A DNA stretch of 64,000 nt, from positions 1 to 64,000 of the IMG/VR virus record IMGVR_UViG_2906454065_000003. One strand, written 5' to 3'. Shown one piece after another: positions 37,444 to 49,353 of this stretch (within the stretch, counting starts at the first letter, position 1; the number at the start of each line of letters is the position of its first letter). The position numbers were made by a program, and so were the translations under genes. The notes beneath the pieces are model-generated. The model did no database searches. It had not been told where the DNA came from and worked only from the letters and a program-made list of their open reading frames with translations. The DNA comes from a virus.

Positions 37444-37510
37444 GACATAGGCAACAAATGATAGAGGGGGATGGTGTTAATGCCGTTCCCCTTTTTTAAT
37501 ATTCAGAACC

Positions 37511-37894
37511 ATGAGTAAGGCAAGTAAATTAGTTACGGATGCAATTCTTGGAGAGGACACCGTAACGATAATCGTGAATGGAAGGGCTTATTACGTTTCA
37601 CCACCTACAATTATAAAATTGGTCAAGGCGGCTAAATACCTTGATAGTTTCGAAGAGGGCAAGACCTTAGCGGAAGTCTTATGCATGCTTAAGAATTTGG
37701 ATGATGCTTGCAAGGCGTTGTCCGTATTCATACAAGGCGATGAATCCATTAGTGATGAATTATCTAAAGGAACGCTTGAAGAGGTTGTCAATGGCTTACA
37801 AACGGCTTATTCCTTAATCTCTATAAAGGATTTTCAGACGCTATCAATTTTGGCGAAGAGTGCGGCAAGGATGATAGCAAAACCACGACCATAG
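37511..37894 (+). CDS. hypothetical protein
   Basis: 127-aa ORF. Confidence 0.4.
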   Translation: MSKASKLVTDAILGEDTVTIIVNGRAYYVSPPTIIKLVKAAKYLDSFEEGKTLAEVLCMLKNLDDACKALSVFIQGDESISDELSKGTLEEVVNGLQTAYSLISIKDFQTLSILAKSAARMIAKPRP

Positions 37895-38834: not shown

Positions 38835-38928
38835 ATTCAAGGGTTAGAGTCCCTTTTTTACAACCATATTACTTGTGGTTATTTTTATACATCGGTTTTT
38901 ATTAACGATTGTTTTTTATGGTAGATAA

Positions 38929-39213
38929 ATGTATAAAAACGAGCACAAGTTCCCTTATAGATGGACTAAAAAAGATGCTAATTTCACAAAAGACAAAGGT
39001 AAGGTGATGTCTTGCTTTTGTTGTGGAGGTGGAAGTTCCTTTGGTTACAAACTAGCTGGCTACGATGTTGTAGCCTGTAATGAGATAGACCCAAAGGTTA
39101 TGAAGATGTACTTGAAGAATCACGATGTCAAGTATTCTTTCAATTGTGATATTCGTGAGTTGATTACCAATATCAATATGGGGGGGGCATATTATGAAAG
39201 AAGAGTTGCATAA
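38929..39213 (+). CDS. DNA (cytosine-5)-methyltransferase, N-terminal part (motifs I-II), truncated by frameshift
   Basis: FCCGGGSSFG is motif I (FxGxG). ACNEID is motif II. The frame ends 8 codons after a G8 tract. Confidence 0.7.
   Translation: MYKNEHKFPYRWTKKDANFTKDKGKVMSCFCCGGGSSFGYKLAGYDVVACNEIDPKVMKMYLKNHDVKYSFNCDIRELITNINMGGAYYERRVA
39180..39187. repeat. poly-G(8) homopolymer tract inside the C5-MTase gene
   Basis: ATGGGGGGGGCAT. A 9-G (or 6-G) tract would fuse frame 1 (..NINMGG) to frame 2 (HIMKEEL...DILDASFPC). Confidence 0.9.
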
Positions 39214-40036
39214 TTTGGATATATTGGATGCTAGTTTCCCATGTTCTGTATTCAGTATTGCAGGTGACCGCCAAAAGGCTTGGGGAAAGGAAAAAGTATT
39301 CCGAGAAGGTCAGAAGGCGCAAAGGCTTGACGATTTGGCTTTCTACTCTATTGACCTTGCTAAAGAACTAAAGCCAAAGGTGGTGGTTTTTGAGAATGTC
39401 CAAGGTTTGTTGCAAGGTGAAGCTATCGAGTACGTGAAAGAGATTTACAAGCAGATGGATAATGCCGGATATATCTTGCAGCATTGGTTGCTTAATGCAC
39501 GTAATATGGGTGTTCCTCAGAATCGACCTAGGGTGTTCTTTCTAGGATTACGCAAAGACCTTTGCGAGCCGTTTATGGTTCAGAAGGATTTGTTCGAGCG
39601 AGTGCCTAAGATAGATATGGACTTCAACGAGAAAGAAATTGTCTTGGATGAGTTCTCGGACTATAATGGAAGACAGATTCCTAAAGGAATGATGAAGTAT
39701 TGGGAGTATAGAAACGAAAAGGACAATTCTATCGGTGATATTGTCAAGCGGATGGATAATCGTCTTTCTATGTTCAATAATATGTTTCTTAAAAAGAACA
39801 AGGTATGCAATACCATATCAGCAATGGAAGATAGACTTGTGTATTATGATAATCCAAGTTATCTTTCAGCACATGATACGATTTTAGCATCAACATTTCC
39901 GATGGATTATGACTTTAATGGCATGAAACCTTGGTTTGCTTGCGGAATGTGTGTTCCTCCTGTTATGATGGCTAATGTAGCTACAAGAATCTGGGATTGT
40001 TGGTTATCAAAGATTAAAAAGGAGGAATGCGCATGA
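39194..40036 (+). CDS. DNA (cytosine-5)-methyltransferase, C-terminal part (motifs IV onward)
   Basis: DILDASFPCSVFS is motif IV (PC). ENVQGLL is motif VI (ENV). Frame 2 is open upstream through the G tract. Confidence 0.7.
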   Translation: MKEELHNLDILDASFPCSVFSIAGDRQKAWGKEKVFREGQKAQRLDDLAFYSIDLAKELKPKVVVFENVQGLLQGEAIEYVKEIYKQMDNAGYILQHWLLNARNMGVPQNRPRVFFLGLRKDLCEPFMVQKDLFERVPKIDMDFNEKEIVLDEFSDYNGRQIPKGMMKYWEYRNEKDNSIGDIVKRMDNRLSMFNNMFLKKNKVCNTISAMEDRLVYYDNPSYLSAHDTILASTFPMDYDFNGMKPWFACGMCVPPVMMANVATRIWDCWLSKIKKEECA

Positions 40037-40770
40037 TAACAGCAAGTATGACATCGGGAGAGATGCGTAGAGTACGAAACTTAGATGAAGCTAGAATCTA
40101 TGAGTTTCAGATGCGAAAAGCTAATGAGCTTAAACGTGAAATGAGAAAGCAGAACGTAAGACAAATAACAAAGACCTTTGAGCTTGCTACACCTAATGCC
40201 GATTATTTCATCGTTGTAGGTGTAAAACATGGCGATGTATTTGCTTCCGGTTTGTTCATTTATCTGAAGGAAACCAACGAGTATATTCCTATGAGTAGAA
40301 ACGAGGGGTATAGCGAAGATTGTTTTGCTATGAGCGTTCATTTTCTGAAGAGATTTGCAGAAAGGTTTTTGAAAAAAGACTTACCGATTCTCAAGATATT
40401 GCAAAAGATATATACATCGTTTACAGGTGCTGTTCAGCTCTATAGTGATGACAAGACAAGAAGAGTGGTATTTGCTATTCCGGAAGGGCTTATACTCACA
40501 GAATACGAGCAAGAAAAGCATATCATCCATTACAAAACCTTTGTAAGCATGGATATGCTAAAGAAGACACAGAAGCGGAGTTATGAGAAGATAAGTGCAT
40601 TTCTCATGGAGTCTTGTCAGCAAATAGCTAAAGCAAGAGACACCGGAAATGACGAAAGGCTGTGCGTTGTGTACAGAAGGTTTTACAATGATATTGATTT
40701 GCTAGATACAAAGGAGGCGCAAGCCATATATTCAAGTTTCTTTGAAAAAGGAGGTAACAATGAAAGATAA
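40027..40770 (+). CDS. hypothetical protein
   Basis: 247-aa ORF that overlaps the MTase stop. Confidence 0.45.
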   Translation: MRMITASMTSGEMRRVRNLDEARIYEFQMRKANELKREMRKQNVRQITKTFELATPNADYFIVVGVKHGDVFASGLFIYLKETNEYIPMSRNEGYSEDCFAMSVHFLKRFAERFLKKDLPILKILQKIYTSFTGAVQLYSDDKTRRVVFAIPEGLILTEYEQEKHIIHYKTFVSMDMLKKTQKRSYEKISAFLMESCQQIAKARDTGNDERLCVVYRRFYNDIDLLDTKEAQAIYSSFFEKGGNNER

Positions 40771-41263
40771 ATGTATAACAAGGTTTCTTGGTGATATAAA
40801 GCCTATAAAGAATTACGAAAGGTATTATGTTAGCAAGCTGGGACATGTTTTTACTATTGGGAGAACGTCTCAATTAAAGGAAATCGCCCCATGTAAGACA
40901 CCAAAAGGTTATCTGAAGGTATGGCTTTACAAGAACGGAAAACGCAAAATGTTCTATATCCATCGTTTGGTAGCTCAGGCTTTCTTGGAGAATCCAGATG
41001 CGTTGCCGATGGTGAATCATAAGGATTTCGACAAGACGAATAACGATGTAGACAACTTGGAGTATTGCACTGCAAGATACAATATGGTTTATTCGGCTAT
41101 AGCAAAGAAGACTTCATCTGTATACTTGGGCGTGACGTGGAATAAGAACAACAGAAAATGGCAAGCTCAGTACCAGATAGGTAAGAAGAAAATTTATATC
41201 GGATGCTTTGGGACGCAAGAAGAAGCTCACGAAGCTTATGTTAACGCTATTAAAGAGATTTGA
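40742..41263 (+). CDS. HNH homing endonuclease (NUMOD4 / HNH_3 / AP2 architecture)
   Basis: YYVSKLGHVFT is NUMOD4-like. HRLVAQAF...VNHKDFDKTNNDVDNLEY is HNH_3. GVTWNKNNRKWQAQ...GCFGTQEEAHEAY is an AP2 domain. Confidence 0.75.
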   Translation: MKKEVTMKDKCITRFLGDIKPIKNYERYYVSKLGHVFTIGRTSQLKEIAPCKTPKGYLKVWLYKNGKRKMFYIHRLVAQAFLENPDALPMVNHKDFDKTNNDVDNLEYCTARYNMVYSAIAKKTSSVYLGVTWNKNNRKWQAQYQIGKKKIYIGCFGTQEEAHEAYVNAIKEI

Positions 41264-41264
41264 T

Positions 41265-41975
41265 ATGCTAGAATTAAACAGAATATACAATTCCGACTGT
41301 ATAGAAGGAATGAAGCAAATAGAGAGTGGGGAGGTGGATTTGATTGTTACTGACCATCCGTATTGCATAGCCTACAAGACTGGGTGGAGAGCTGACGACC
41401 ATCGTTTCTCTAAGGAAATACTCAATGATGATAATGAGCAATTGATTATTGATTATATGAGCGAATGCTACCGGATTTTAAAGGATGATAGTGCTGCTTA
41501 TATCTTCTGTAGTGCTAAGACCTTGGACTTTTTTATGCAACAAGCGAGGAATGCAGGGTTTACCATTAAGAATGTGCTCATTTGGCGAAAGAACAACCAT
41601 ACTGCTGGAGATTTAGAGGCGCAATATGGTCAATGTTACGAGCCAATCCTGTACTTGAATAAAGGCAGACGAACCATAAACGGCAAGCGCTTAGAGGATG
41701 TTTGGGACTTTGATAGAGTTCCATCAGATAAATTGGTACATCAGAACGAGAAACCAATCCCCTTGCTTATGCAATGCATCTTGAAATCATCAAATGAAGG
41801 CGACTTGGTGTTTGATGGCTTTATGGGCAGCGCAAGTACGGCTCTTGCTTGTTTGCGTACCAACAGAAAGTTCCTTGGCTTTGAATTGGATAAGGATTAT
41901 TTCAATGTGGCACAGAGAAGAATTAAGGAAGAAATGTCTAACCAAAAAGATATGTTTGGATATGCTGGAGATTAA
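41265..41975 (+). CDS. beta-class DNA N6-adenine/N4-cytosine methyltransferase
   Basis: Start MLELNRIYNSDC. DLIVTDHPY is a motif IV variant of DPPY. HQNEKPIPLL then VFDGFMGSASTALAC is motif I (FxGxG), placed C-terminally as in the beta class. Confidence 0.7.
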   Translation: MLELNRIYNSDCIEGMKQIESGEVDLIVTDHPYCIAYKTGWRADDHRFSKEILNDDNEQLIIDYMSECYRILKDDSAAYIFCSAKTLDFFMQQARNAGFTIKNVLIWRKNNHTAGDLEAQYGQCYEPILYLNKGRRTINGKRLEDVWDFDRVPSDKLVHQNEKPIPLLMQCILKSSNEGDLVFDGFMGSASTALACLRTNRKFLGFELDKDYFNVAQRRIKEEMSNQKDMFGYAGD

Positions 41976-42687: not shown

Positions 42688-42906
42688 ATGCGTATGATAT
42701 TTCAATGTGATCCAGTTGTAAGAAATGGGAATAAAGAGATTACGGATGCTCTGATAAGAGCTATGAGAGACGAAGCCTTAAAACGTGGGTTGGTACGTGA
42801 TGAATTGGTAGAATTTTGCAATAGATTCTTGAGAGAAGGCGAAATCAATGCTTGTATAGAGCATTTGCTTGATAATTTCAAACGTTATTTTTGGAGGTAT
42901 TATTGA
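42688..42906 (+). CDS. hypothetical protein
   Basis: 72-aa ORF. Confidence 0.4.
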   Translation: MRMIFQCDPVVRNGNKEITDALIRAMRDEALKRGLVRDELVEFCNRFLREGEINACIEHLLDNFKRYFWRYY

Positions 42907-42907
42907 T

Positions 42908-43537
42908 ATGAAAAGAAGAAAGTTGAACAAGTCTCCAGTGCTAGGCTTCTGCGGATTTGTTATCGGTTACGAGTGCAAGGAAAAGGGAATAAAGCTGATG
43001 GAGTGCGATAAGACGCAAGCTGATGCAATCATAGTTCCTCATCACTTTTCACACAAGGTAACGAAGAATAGTTGCTTGAATCTTTTGGTATTGTATAAGG
43101 ATAAGATAAGGGGTGCAATGCAAATAGGGTATGGAATCCGACCGCACATCAAGACTGAAAAGGGCGAAGTGTTGGATTACCATCAAGTGAGGGAATTTGA
43201 CAGAATGTGGTTGTCTGATGATATGCCAAAGTTTAGCGAGACGATTTGCCTTTCTCTCTTGCATAAGTATATTAGGGCAACACATAAGGAAATCAAGTAC
43301 CTTATATCTTATGCCGATACGTCCATAGGTAACAAGGGAACTATATATAAAGCTGCAAACTATGAGCATATTGATACCATTAAGGCAGATTTCTATGTGT
43401 TACCAAGTGGTGAGCGTGTGCATCCGGTTACGATGTGGCATCGGCACAAGACAAGAGCATGGGAGGTTCTAACGAAGCTATACCCAGGAATAAAAAAGGC
43501 AGAAGGGTTTCAACTTAAATTTCTGAAGAAGTTATGA
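42908..43537 (+). CDS. hypothetical protein, possible acyltransferase-fold DNA-modification enzyme
   Basis: The ATG at 42908 (MKRRKL) directly follows the previous stop. YADTSIGNKGTIYKAANYEHI resembles a GNAT/Mom-like motif, recalled from memory only. Sits inside the MTase/HNH island. Confidence 0.35.
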   Translation: MKRRKLNKSPVLGFCGFVIGYECKEKGIKLMECDKTQADAIIVPHHFSHKVTKNSCLNLLVLYKDKIRGAMQIGYGIRPHIKTEKGEVLDYHQVREFDRMWLSDDMPKFSETICLSLLHKYIRATHKEIKYLISYADTSIGNKGTIYKAANYEHIDTIKADFYVLPSGERVHPVTMWHRHKTRAWEVLTKLYPGIKKAEGFQLKFLKKL

Positions 43538-49016: not shown

Positions 49017-49024
49017 GGGGGGGG
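49017..49024. repeat. poly-G(8) tract 24 nt upstream of the ATG at 49048
   Basis: CAGGGAGGGGGGGGAGGGAAGAAGAGAAAATGGAAGTATGG. Intergenic. Confidence 0.85.
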
Positions 49025-49047: not shown

Positions 49048-49353
49048 ATGGATAAGAAAGAGAAATCAATCAATAGTCATATTGGTAAGGCTATAGGCTA
49101 TTCAGATAAAGCTCATTACGAGTTGCAAACCGCTCTAAATATTGCTTTGGAAGGAAAAGGGCTTAGTGACGAGGAAAAGGAACTTCTAAGCGTTGACTTT
49201 GCAACGGGACCAGAAGAAGCCGTAGAGCGTGTTGCTGATGGTAGTTGTAATGATGAACATACCAGTGCCTGGGATAGCTCAATTAGAGACTGCCGAATAT
49301 CTGAGGTATATCGCATGACAGGTGAGCAGATACGTGAATATTTTAATTTGTAA
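49048..49353 (+). CDS. hypothetical protein
   Basis: 101-aa ORF. Confidence 0.45.
   Translation: MDKKEKSINSHIGKAIGYSDKAHYELQTALNIALEGKGLSDEEKELLSVDFATGPEEAVERVADGSCNDEHTSAWDSSIRDCRISEVYRMTGEQIREYFNL

What the first reader, a model, noticed from the sequence alone, without database searches (positions are those of the whole stretch)
38929..40036. C5 cytosine methyltransferase split by a poly-G(8) tract: candidate phase-variable DNA modification
Motifs I and II (FCCGGGSSFG, ACNEID) lie in frame 1 and motifs IV and VI (DILDASFPCSVFS, ENV) in frame 2. The only thing separating them is G8 at 39180..39187. A 9-G tract would give one uninterrupted Dcm-like enzyme reading ...NINMGGG-HIMKEEL.... Homopolymer slippage is a classic ON/OFF switch for methyltransferases in phasevarions. 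In a phage it would produce a mixed population of methylated and unmethylated virions, a bet-hedging strategy against methylation-dependent versus methylation-sensitive restriction. Alternatively the two halves may work as a naturally split MTase, as M.AquI does, or the G8 may be an assembly error.
Basis: partly seen in the sequence, partly recalled or inferred. Interest (0 to 1): 0.75.

Follow-up and report, generated by a model that had tools for sequence, protein, structure and literature searches.

The report
Slippery G-run switch in phage methylase
A gut phage gene for a DNA cytosine methylase is broken here by one extra G in a run of Gs, and related phages show this run is conserved and keeps changing length, so it most likely acts as a random on/off switch for marking the phage's DNA.

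Summary
G8 at 39180-39187 splits a single PF00145 C5-cytosine methyltransferase into ORF1 (38929-39213) and ORF2 (39194-40036). The frame is restored by 7 or 10 G, not 9.

Comparative data support a hypermutable contingency tract.
- About 70% of close relatives carry G7 and an intact 368-aa gene. About 30% carry G6, G8 or G9 (33/113 IMG/VR contigs, 14/40 ENA contigs), including assemblies at 37-78x coverage.
- Gene haplotypes identical over 1,100 nt differ only in tract length. Parsimony needs at least 24 changes for 28 off-length tips.
- The G-run is the only indel between the window and its 99.2-99.6% identical relatives.
- The run is kept as GGG GGG plus an adjacent G in every lineage examined down to 55% protein identity. 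GGG is the rarest Gly codon here (7%).
- It encodes a clade-specific surface loop.
- Poly-G tracts also interrupt other methyltransferase genes in related phages.

The window is most likely a real OFF allele of a reversible ON/OFF switch. Switching rate, reversibility and benefit are inferred, not shown. Precedents exist: T2 agt, Fletchervirus poly-G and a BPP-1 methylase poly-G. This is therefore a new member of a known kind.

The parts
39180..39187 (+). Poly-G tract, G8 in this window, which is the out-of-frame (OFF) length. G7 or G10 would be in frame.
   Evidence: Relatives carry G6/G7/G8/G9 at the same site. The run is conserved as GGG GGG plus an adjacent G in diverged lineages.
38929..39213 (+). 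ORF1: N-terminal piece of the C5-MTase (motif I FCCGGGSSFG 39016-39045, motif II ACNEID 39073-39090, motif III-like CDIRE 39145-39159). It ends in 9 out-of-frame codons and TAA at 39211-39213.
   Evidence: (PF00145 positions 2-51).
39007..39009 (+). Internal ATG (Met27), a possible true start codon of the methyltransferase.
   Evidence: The Pfam match starts at residue 25. Four relatives have an A6->A7 frameshift and one a 5-nt deletion upstream of this ATG, with the gene otherwise intact. A 342-aa cluster P0002 and P0008/P0013 start here. Inference only.
39194..40036 (+). ORF2: C-terminal piece of the C5-MTase (motif IV SFPCS 39233-39247, VI FENV 39389-39400, VIII PQNRPRVFF 39515-39541, target-recognition region, motif X-like CGMCVPP 39941-39961). 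Its ATG lies 2 codons after the tract.
   Evidence: (PF00145 positions 56-322). The same ORF2 is called as a separate 273-282-aa protein in many public assemblies.
38912..38917 (+). T6 tract 11 nt upstream of ATG 38929. Its length varies (6-9 T) among relatives. It may lie in the promoter or 5' region of the gene.
   Evidence: 85 x T6, 10 x T7, 4 x T8, 4 x T9. Role not tested.

Best explanation
The G-run is a conserved hypermutable simple-sequence repeat (a contingency locus) inside the coding sequence of an orphan phage C5-cytosine DNA methyltransferase. During genome replication, slipped-strand mispairing adds or removes a G. With 7 G (or 10) the gene encodes one 368-aa enzyme (342 aa if Met27 is the start) and the phage DNA is C5-modified at that enzyme's target sites. 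With 6, 8 or 9 G translation stops 3-9 codons after the tract and no intact enzyme is made. The window carries the G8 OFF allele. Because slippage is frequent and reversible, each phage population holds both modified and unmodified genomes. This would hedge between hosts whose restriction enzymes are blocked by the methylation and hosts whose modification-dependent (Type IV) nucleases attack it. Shown here: the tract, the frames, the single-family identity of both halves, natural length polymorphism with recurrent independent changes, and nucleotide-level conservation of the tract. Inferred: high rate, reversibility, loss of activity in OFF alleles, and the adaptive benefit.
For: (1) Both halves are one PF00145 enzyme. 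The AF2 model (pLDDT 90) is a C5-MTase fold. (2) The closest GenBank relative, MT835576.1 (95.6% identity), has G7 and an intact 368-aa ORF. (3) An unbiased flank-pattern scan of IMG/VR gave 113 contigs: 80 in frame (78 G7, 2 A+G6) and 33 out of frame (G8 x20, G6 x7, G9 x3, AG7 x2, AG8 x1). ENA gut metagenomes gave 40 contigs: 26 in frame and 14 out, with OFF alleles at SPAdes coverage 37x, 41x, 64x and 78x. (4) Eight haplotype groups that are 100% identical over about 1,100 nt hold 2-3 different tract lengths. Fitch parsimony needs at least 24 changes for 28 off-length tips, against a shuffled mean of 26.4, so nearly every OFF allele is an independent recent event and OFF alleles do not found clades. 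(5) After normalising the tract, 27 of 28 OFF alleles have no other lesion. (6) Coding A6/T6/G5 runs in the same contigs vary 0-2%, against 28% for this tract. The tract is the only indel between the window and relatives 99.2-99.6% identical over 5.6-9 kb. (7) The homopolymer is conserved in every lineage examined down to 55% aa identity, although flanking codons and residues differ: ATG/CTG/TCG GGG GGG C, AAT/AGT GGG GGG GCA, CTT GGG GGG GGT. OFF G8 or G6 alleles also occur in diverged lineages. GGG is only 7.1% of Gly codons, and 0 of 47 other Gly-Gly pairs is GGG GGG. (8) The tract encodes a 5-residue loop present only in this clade (12 of 93 homologues), at a break between helices 75-84 and 87-93, which is a permissive site. 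(9) Poly-G tracts of varying length also interrupt the neighbouring N6/N4 methyltransferase in relatives (G6/G7/G8), in a diverged lineage (L331), and a third MTase in L095. (10) The same logic has been shown experimentally for another phage DNA-modification gene, T2 agt (A-run, TgvAB vs McrBC; bioRxiv 10.1101/2025.10.21.683753).
Against: No reads are available, so within-population heterogeneity, rate and reversibility are not observed. For this particular contig a consensus error cannot be formally excluded. No G10 (second in-frame length) allele was seen. The pattern of a modal in-frame length with tip-restricted OFF alleles is also what mutation-selection balance at a mutational hotspot would give. 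The argument for adaptive value rests on conservation of the tract against codon bias, and on interrupted alleles (ATGGGGAGG, ATAGGGGGG) being rare. The IMG/VR and ENA sets overlap in part (for example the 224,717-nt contig), so they are not fully independent samples. The target sequence of the enzyme, the host's restriction systems and the nature of the transferred group are unknown.
Confidence: 0.68

Rival explanations
1. Non-adaptive mutational hotspot. The G-run is simply the most slippage-prone site of a dispensable or mildly useful methyltransferase. OFF alleles are recurrent deleterious or neutral mutations that are purged or drift, and the tract has no selected switching role.
For: OFF alleles are tip-restricted and the in-frame length is modal, as expected under mutation-selection balance. 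Other routes of inactivation also occur at low frequency: the L091 E52* nonsense and the L146 A5->A4 change. Intergenic homopolymers also vary in length.
Against: A costly hotspot that leaves about 30% of genomes OFF could be removed by one synonymous change. Yet the run is kept as GGG GGG plus a flanking G in all nine lineages examined down to 55% identity, although GGG is the rarest Gly codon (7%) and neighbouring synonymous sites are scrambled. Interrupted alleles exist but are rare. Analogous tracts sit in two other MTase genes of related phages.
Confidence: 0.17
2. The OFF alleles still yield activity. This could happen through assembly of the two fragments into a split enzyme (ORF1 = motifs I-III, ORF2 = motifs IV-X), with ORF2 re-initiating at the ATG two codons after the tract. 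It could also happen through low-level +1 ribosomal or transcriptional slippage on the G-run. The tract would then be a rheostat, or neutral, rather than an ON/OFF switch.
For: An ATG always lies two codons after the tract in tract-bearing lineages (GG-x-x-M). In the G6/G9 frame the ORF1 stop overlaps it (ATGA), and in the G8 frame ORF1 stops 17 nt downstream. Gene callers find ORF1 and ORF2 as adjacent genes. GGG_G allows perfect re-pairing of tRNA-Gly after a +1 shift (established knowledge, not tested).
Against: If split alleles were functional and neutral they should persist and diversify, but they are tip-restricted and the fused form is modal in every lineage. The split would cut the Rossmann-type core between motif III and motif IV, unlike M.AquI, which is divided later in the protein (from memory). 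The Met is a clade feature and not tied to the tract: a homologue with the loop but no GG also has it.
Confidence: 0.09
3. Sequencing or assembly artefact. The true sequence of this phage has G7 and the extra G is a homopolymer consensus error.
For: A single-base homopolymer difference is the classic error of some platforms. The platform of this window is unknown. A haplotype identical over the gene exists with G7.
Against: The window has no other indel against relatives 99.2-99.6% identical over 5.6-9 kb. G8 recurs in about 18-23% of independent contigs, including SPAdes Illumina assemblies at 41x and 64x. It also occurs in diverged lineages seen in several samples. L187 (99.56% identical over 8.1 kb) shares G8 with zero gaps. 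Coding homopolymers of 5-6 nt in the same contigs are stable.
Confidence: 0.05

Closest known systems
T2 agt contingency locus (Gomez, Barrick & Waters, bioRxiv 10.1101/2025.10.21.683753)
   Same: A phage-encoded DNA-modification enzyme is switched off and on by +/-1 slippage in a coding homopolymer. The proposed pay-off is escape from modification-dependent restriction, traded against protection from other restriction systems.
   Different: T2 uses an A-run in a glucosyltransferase of a T-even coliphage, and the switch was shown experimentally with measured reversion. Here the run is poly-G in a C5-methyltransferase of an uncultured gut phage, with only comparative evidence. On the other hand, the tract here is conserved across deep divergence and natural OFF frequencies are about 30%.
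Hypermutable poly-G tracts of Campylobacter Fletchervirus phages (Sorensen et al. 2021, Cell Rep 35:109214, as cited)
   Same: Poly-G tracts of similar length (7-11) lie in phage coding sequences and generate phenotypically mixed progeny.
   Different: Those tracts lie in receptor-binding protein genes and alter host recognition, not DNA modification. The host phylum is also different.
Poly-G tract in the methylase gene of Bordetella phage BPP-1 (Liu et al. 2004, as cited)
   Same: A poly-G run sits inside a phage DNA methylase gene.
   Different: According to the citing preprint it was only noted, and was neither studied nor designated a contingency locus. I could not read the original paper, so homology and tract position are unknown.
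Bacterial phase-variable methyltransferases (phasevarions: Mod of Type III R-M systems in Haemophilus, Neisseria, Helicobacter and Moraxella)
   Same: A simple-sequence repeat inside an MTase ORF gives stochastic ON/OFF expression.
   Different: Those are N6-adenine Mod subunits of cellular R-M systems, and switching reprograms host gene expression. Here the enzyme is an orphan C5 enzyme on a phage, and a regulatory role was neither tested nor needed.
SpCmoX, DNA cytosine C5-carboxymethyltransferase of Synechococcus phage S-B43 (PDB 8YF3; PMC12783734)
   Same: It is the closest solved structure by sequence (E 4e-35 over residues 7-361) and by fold (Foldseek E 5e-20). It is also a phage enzyme.
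   Different: The features that define CmoX are absent. Here the motif is SFPC instead of SPPC, and Met stands at the position of R350. No CmoA-like gene is found among 76 window ORFs.
M.AquI-type naturally split C5-methyltransferase
   Same: In this window the enzyme is encoded as two consecutive ORFs.
   Different: The split is not the conserved state, since about 70% of relatives are fused. It falls between motifs III and IV rather than before the C-terminal motifs (M.AquI layout from memory).

Membership tests
C5-cytosine DNA methyltransferase (Pfam PF00145) | Significant full-length match to the family profile by one polypeptide | tested here: met
   The G7 allele scores E 7.7e-42 over profile positions 2-322/324. 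The window's ORF1 covers 2-51 and ORF2 covers 56-322.
C5-cytosine DNA methyltransferase (Pfam PF00145) | Motif I FxGxG (AdoMet binding), motif IV Pro-Cys (catalytic Cys), motif VI ENV, motif VIII QxRxR | tested here: met
   FCCGGGSSFG, SFPCS, FENV and PQNRPRVFF are present and invariant in 93 homologues.
C5-cytosine DNA methyltransferase (Pfam PF00145) | Motif X Gly-Asn (N304 of M.HhaI) | tested here: not met
   The aligned position is Met (CGMCVPP). M340 is invariant in the whole subfamily. The consequence for the cofactor is unknown.
C5-cytosine DNA methyltransferase (Pfam PF00145) | Two-domain C5-MTase fold | tested here: met
   AF2 model with pLDDT 90.1 and pTM 0.90. Top PDB matches are 8YF3, M.HhaI and M.HaeIII.
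C5-cytosine DNA methyltransferase (Pfam PF00145) | Transfers a methyl group to C5 of cytosine in DNA | not testable with these tools
   Needs an enzyme assay or a methylome.
Simple-sequence-repeat contingency locus (phase-variable gene) | Homopolymer or short repeat within the ORF, whose length sets the reading frame | tested here: met
   The G-run at 39180-39187 is in frame at 7 or 10 and out of frame at 6, 8 and 9.
Simple-sequence-repeat contingency locus (phase-variable gene) | Repeat length polymorphic among otherwise near-identical genomes, through recurrent independent changes | tested here: met
   Lengths 6-9 occur in 113 IMG/VR and 40 ENA contigs. Identical haplotypes carry different lengths. 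At least 24 parsimony changes are needed for 28 off-length tips.
Simple-sequence-repeat contingency locus (phase-variable gene) | The repeat itself is conserved beyond what the protein requires | tested here: met
   GGG GGG plus a flanking G is present in all lineages down to 55% identity. GGG is 7% of Gly codons and 0 of 47 other GG pairs use it twice.
Simple-sequence-repeat contingency locus (phase-variable gene) | Elevated, reversible switching rate measured within a clonal population | not testable with these tools
   No reads or cultures are available.
Phasevarion (phase-variable MTase controlling a regulon) | ON/OFF state changes expression of other genes through methylation | not testable with these tools
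   No expression data. No integrase was found in the window, so a lysogenic regulatory role is unsupported. Not filed here.
Naturally split C5-MTase (M.AquI type) | The two-ORF organisation is the conserved, normal state of the gene | tested here: not met
   About 70% of close relatives and all diverged full-length lineages are fused.
CmoX cytosine C5-carboxymethyltransferase | SPPC motif and Arg at position 350 (criteria of PMC12783734) | tested here: not met
   SFPC and Met are found at the aligned positions.
CmoX cytosine C5-carboxymethyltransferase | Phage-encoded CmoA (Cx-SAM synthase) in the genome | tested here: inconclusive
   No such family appears among the 25 listed of the 26 Pfam families hit by 76 window ORFs (one family not shown). 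The window may not be the whole genome.

The most novel reading that the evidence does not exclude
This widespread group of human-gut phages (possibly infecting Segatella/Prevotella) carries poly-G contingency tracts in two or three different DNA methyltransferase genes: the C5 enzyme here, the neighbouring N6/N4 enzyme and a third MTase in relatives. Each phage population would then produce a combinatorial mixture of epigenomes. This would be a conserved, selected bet-hedging system against the mix of methylation-sensitive and methylation-dependent restriction in its hosts. A further possibility is that the C5 enzyme (Met in place of the motif-X Asn, closest structure CmoX, amidoligase and amidotransferase genes in the same genome) installs something other than a plain methyl group.
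Probability: 0.3. Interest if true: 0.75.

Novelty: new member of a known kind. Interest (0 to 1): 0.6.

Why it matters
Phage-encoded orphan methyltransferases are usually treated as constitutive anti-restriction armour. Here a natural, abundant gut phage lineage keeps a mutable switch in such a gene, and roughly a third of wild genomes sit in the OFF state. This implies that DNA methylation is a liability in some hosts, presumably those with Type IV restriction. It also implies that phage populations hedge between the two situations. That extends the contingency-locus idea, recently demonstrated in T-even coliphages, to uncultured gut phages and to methylation. It gives a concrete, easily testable locus with G7 versus G8 alleles. 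It is also a practical warning that frameshifted methyltransferases in phage assemblies should not be auto-corrected or dismissed as pseudogenes.

Tried and rejected

(2) The search for related loci with the fused protein returned only in-frame alleles, because ranking favours intact matches. I replaced it with a flank-pattern scan that is blind to tract length.

(3) The search for related loci with P0009 returned only the same lineage again and added nothing. Diverged lineages were instead fetched with the look-up of encoding contigs.

(4) The second G8 at 49017 did not work as a like-for-like control. Only two relatives carry that region (G8 and G6), so there is no equal-length stable G-run to compare with.

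(5) Four A6->A7 frameshifts and one 5-nt deletion first looked like other inactivating lesions. They lie upstream of Met27 and are probably outside the real coding region.

(6) I considered that the Met after the tract co-evolved with it as a restart codon. This is weakened because a homologue with the loop but without GG also has the Met.

(7) CmoX membership is rejected on both published criteria.

(8) Literature searches for a described poly-G C5-MTase switch in gut or Bacteroidota phages found none.

(9) The host assignment is only a hint, from one Segatella copri MAG contig and one probably mis-binned Lachnospiraceae MAG.
Full report
**What is in the sequence**

The window carries a run of exactly eight G at 39180-39187. 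Upstream in frame 1, ORF1 (38929-39213, 94 aa) contains FCCGGGSSFG, ACNEID and CDIRE. Downstream in frame 2, ORF2 (39194-40036, 280 aa) contains SFPCS, FENV, PQNRPRVFF and CGMCVPP. ORF1 matches positions 2-51 and ORF2 positions 56-322 of the 324-position Pfam model PF00145. The two ORFs are therefore consecutive pieces of one C5-cytosine methyltransferase.

Rebuilding the gene with 5 to 11 G shows an uninterrupted frame only with 7 G (NINMGGHIMKEEL) or 10 G (NINMGGGHIMKEEL). Nine G stops at NINMGGGIL*.

The surroundings are phage genes:
- a tape-measure protein, a major head protein and RtcB;
- an HNH/AP2 endonuclease, two N6/N4 methyltransferases and a Mom-family protein just downstream;
- an amidoligase, a class-II amidotransferase, ThyX and Rha/NinG-type genes elsewhere.

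**Is the frameshift real or an error?**

The only close GenBank record, MT835576.1 (human faeces, 95.6% identical), has G7 and an intact 368-aa ORF. A protein-based search of IMG/VR returned 80 loci, all in frame, but that ranking favours intact genes. I therefore scanned with the tract's flanks and a variable gap, which is blind to tract length.

| Collection | Contigs | In frame | Out of frame | Out-of-frame alleles |
|---|---|---|---|---|
| ENA human-gut metagenomes | 40 | 26 | 14 (35%) | G8 x9, A+G7 x2, A+G8 x1, T+G8 x1, G6 x1 |

The ENA out-of-frame alleles occur in SPAdes contigs at 37x, 41x, 64x and 78x coverage. The two collections overlap in part.

Against its nearest relatives (99.2-99.6% identical over 5.6-9 kb), the window differs by 26-61 substitutions and a single indel, the G-run. 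One relative (L187) shares G8 with no gap at all. Coding A6, T6 and G5 runs in the same contigs are 0-2% variable, against 28% for the tract. No equally long G-run was available as a control. A platform artefact in this one contig cannot be formally excluded, but G8 alleles clearly exist in nature.

**Pattern of variation**

I analysed 90 sequences with the whole gene.
- There are 45 haplotypes. Eight haplotype groups that are identical over about 1,100 nt contain two or three tract lengths.
- On a neighbour-joining tree, parsimony needs at least 24 length changes to explain 28 off-length tips. Shuffled states need 26.4 on average.
- Almost every OFF allele is therefore a separate, recent event, and OFF alleles do not found clades.
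- After normalising the tract, 27 of 28 OFF alleles have no other lesion.
- Among G7 alleles only two have clear lesions: E52* in L091 and A5->A4 in L146.
- Four A6->A7 changes and one 5-nt deletion lie upstream of Met27 (39007). This suggests the true start is there (342-aa forms).

In the large protein collection the full-length cluster has 2,651 member sequences. The ORF2-only clusters have 362 and 97. Many N-truncated 273-282-aa proteins at 76-86% identity begin at the Met just after the tract.

**Conservation of the tract**

I fetched DNA of diverged lineages. Each keeps the homopolymer although flanking residues and synonymous sites differ.

| Lineage(s) | Sequence at the site | Length and frame |
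|---|---|---|
| L001 (MT835576.1), P0009 | ATG GGG GGG C | G7, in frame |
| P0004 | CTG GGG GGG C | G7, in frame |
| P0006 | TCG GGG GGG C | G7, in frame |
| P0013 (72% identity) | AAT GGG GGG GCA | G7, in frame |
| P0033 (55% identity) | AGT GGG GGG GCA | G7, in frame |
| P0005 | CTT GGG GGG GGT | G8, in frame |

Out-of-frame alleles also occur in three more lineages:
- ACG-G8 in the P0018 lineage, seen in several samples;
- GCG-G8 in the P0027 lineage;
- G6 in L331.

In this phage GGG is the rarest glycine codon (7.1%), and none of 47 other Gly-Gly pairs in long ORFs is GGG GGG.

At the protein level the tract encodes part of a five-residue loop (I-N-x-G-G). This loop is present in only 12 of 93 full-length homologues, and the other 81 homologues lack it. 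In an AlphaFold model (pLDDT 90.1) the two glycines sit at a break between helices 75-84 and 87-93, just before the motif-IV strand. The run is thus a clade-specific insertion at a permissive site, maintained at the nucleotide level.

**Other methyltransferases**

In relatives, the homologue of the window's N6/N4 methyltransferase (41208-41975) carries GAGAGT-G(n)-TGAGC just before the DPPY motif. The counts are n=8 (five contigs), n=7 (two, in frame) and n=6 (one). The window has an interrupted version, GGGGAGG. A diverged lineage (L331) has TCG-G7-CAG at the same place, out of frame. A third methyltransferase in L095 is split by a G7 that would be in frame at G8. The loci were centred on the methyltransferase cluster, so enrichment in MTase genes was not tested formally.

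**Mechanism**

The best-supported reading is a contingency locus. Replication slippage changes the run by one G, toggling between an intact enzyme (G7) and a truncated one (G6, G8, G9). The phage population therefore contains both C5-modified and unmodified genomes.

Two observations together argue that ON is needed in the long run and that mutability itself is retained. First, the in-frame length is modal in every lineage and OFF alleles are tip-restricted. Second, the run is conserved against codon bias, and interrupted alleles (ATGGGGAGG, ATAGGGGGG) remain rare. The pay-off (escape from modification-dependent restriction versus protection from classical restriction) is an inference. It rests on established knowledge of Type II and Type IV systems and on the experimentally shown T2 agt case.

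Rivals:
- **Non-adaptive hotspot under mutation-selection balance.** This fits the tip-restricted pattern but not the conservation of the tract.
- **Residual activity of OFF alleles**, through fragment assembly or +1 slippage. An ATG follows the tract by two codons, and ORF1 stops at or near it. However, OFF alleles do not persist, the cut falls inside the catalytic core, and the Met is a clade feature.
- **Consensus error** in this contig.

**Comparison with the known**

The enzyme meets the profile, motif I/IV/VI/VIII and fold criteria of C5-methyltransferases. It has Met where motif X normally has Asn, invariant in the subfamily.

Its closest solved structure is SpCmoX, a phage cytosine C5-carboxymethyltransferase. 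It fails both published CmoX criteria, SPPC and Arg350, and no CmoA-like gene is among the Pfam families listed for the window's ORFs. I therefore do not file it there.

As a switch it meets the sequence-level criteria of an SSR contingency locus. Rate and reversibility are untestable here.

Precedents:
- T2 agt (an A-run in a DNA glucosyltransferase);
- poly-G tracts in Fletchervirus receptor-binding genes;
- a noted but unstudied poly-G in the BPP-1 methylase gene;
- bacterial phasevarions.

I found no description of a poly-G-switched C5-methyltransferase in gut phages.

**Verdict**

This is a new member of a known kind, well supported by comparative evidence. It is of moderate to good interest because the tract is deeply conserved, OFF alleles are common in nature, and several methyltransferases of the same phages seem to use the same device.

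Noticed in passing
window 49017-49024: A second G8 run, the only other G/C run of 6 or more in the window. It lies in a purine-rich intergenic stretch (GGGAGGGGGGGGAGGGAAGAAGAG) 24 nt upstream of ORF 49048-49353. Only two relatives carry this region: one has G8 and one has G6.
   Followed up: partly
window 41208-41975 (site 41328-41334); relatives L082, L100, L114, L191, L319, L331: The neighbouring N6/N4 DNA methyltransferase has a poly-G tract (GAGAGT-Gn-TGAGC, n=6/7/8, in frame at 7) in some relatives. A diverged lineage has TCG-G7-CAG at the same site, out of frame. The window has an interrupted GGGGAGG. Most tract-bearing copies seen (6 of 8) are out of frame.
   Followed up: partly
L095 position 8352: A third DNA methyltransferase (DIPY... 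/ HPTQKPVELM motifs) in a related contig is split by a G7 run. A 238-codon frame opens only with G8.
   Followed up: partly
window 38912-38917: A T6 run 11 nt upstream of the ATG at 38929 varies from 6 to 9 T among relatives (17.5% non-modal). It could alter a promoter or leader of the methyltransferase gene.
   Followed up: no
window 38968-38973 and 39002-39006: An A6 run in the first 26 codons is A7 in four relatives, and another relative lacks 5 nt just before ATG 39007. The gene is otherwise intact, so the annotated N-terminal 26 codons may not be translated and Met27 may be the real start.
   Followed up: partly
window 39941-39961 (CGMCVPP): The motif-X Asn of C5-methyltransferases (N304 of M.HhaI, R350 of CmoX) is an invariant Met in this whole subfamily. 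The closest solved structure is the carboxymethyltransferase CmoX (8YF3). Cofactor or product could differ from a plain methyl transfer.
   Followed up: partly
window 30811-31746, 42869-43537 and other ORFs: The genome carries an Amidoligase_2 protein, a class-II glutamine amidotransferase domain, DUF1599 ('nucleotide modification associated'), ThyX and a Mom-family protein, besides three methyltransferases. This looks like an extensive DNA-modification or hypermodification toolkit.
   Followed up: no
window 40742-41263: A NUMOD4/HNH_3/AP2 homing-endonuclease-like ORF sits between the C5 and N6/N4 methyltransferase genes. It is conserved at that place in diverged lineages (L277, L280, L283, L286).
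   Followed up: no
window 41529-41534 and 40829; locus L116: A T6 run inside the N6/N4 methyltransferase is T5 in L116. L116 also has an extra T at 40829 in the HNH/AP2 ORF. These are further homopolymer frameshifts in this gene cluster.
   Followed up: no
window 37466-37470: A G5 run just upstream of ORF 37511-37894 is G8 in L182 and AGGGGGG in L096 and L172.
   Followed up: no
L088 position 11721 (minus strand), L095 position 10758: Another variable poly-G (CCTTGGAT-G7/G8-CAAAGATT) lies in a region with only short open frames (under 70 codons at any tract length). The gene is unknown.
   Followed up: partly
contig lengths; L330: Many related contigs are 63-70 kb, but others are 110-290 kb. 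One related contig is binned in a Segatella copri MAG. The phage may be temperate, or assembled with host or concatemer sequence. No integrase was found in the window.
   Followed up: no
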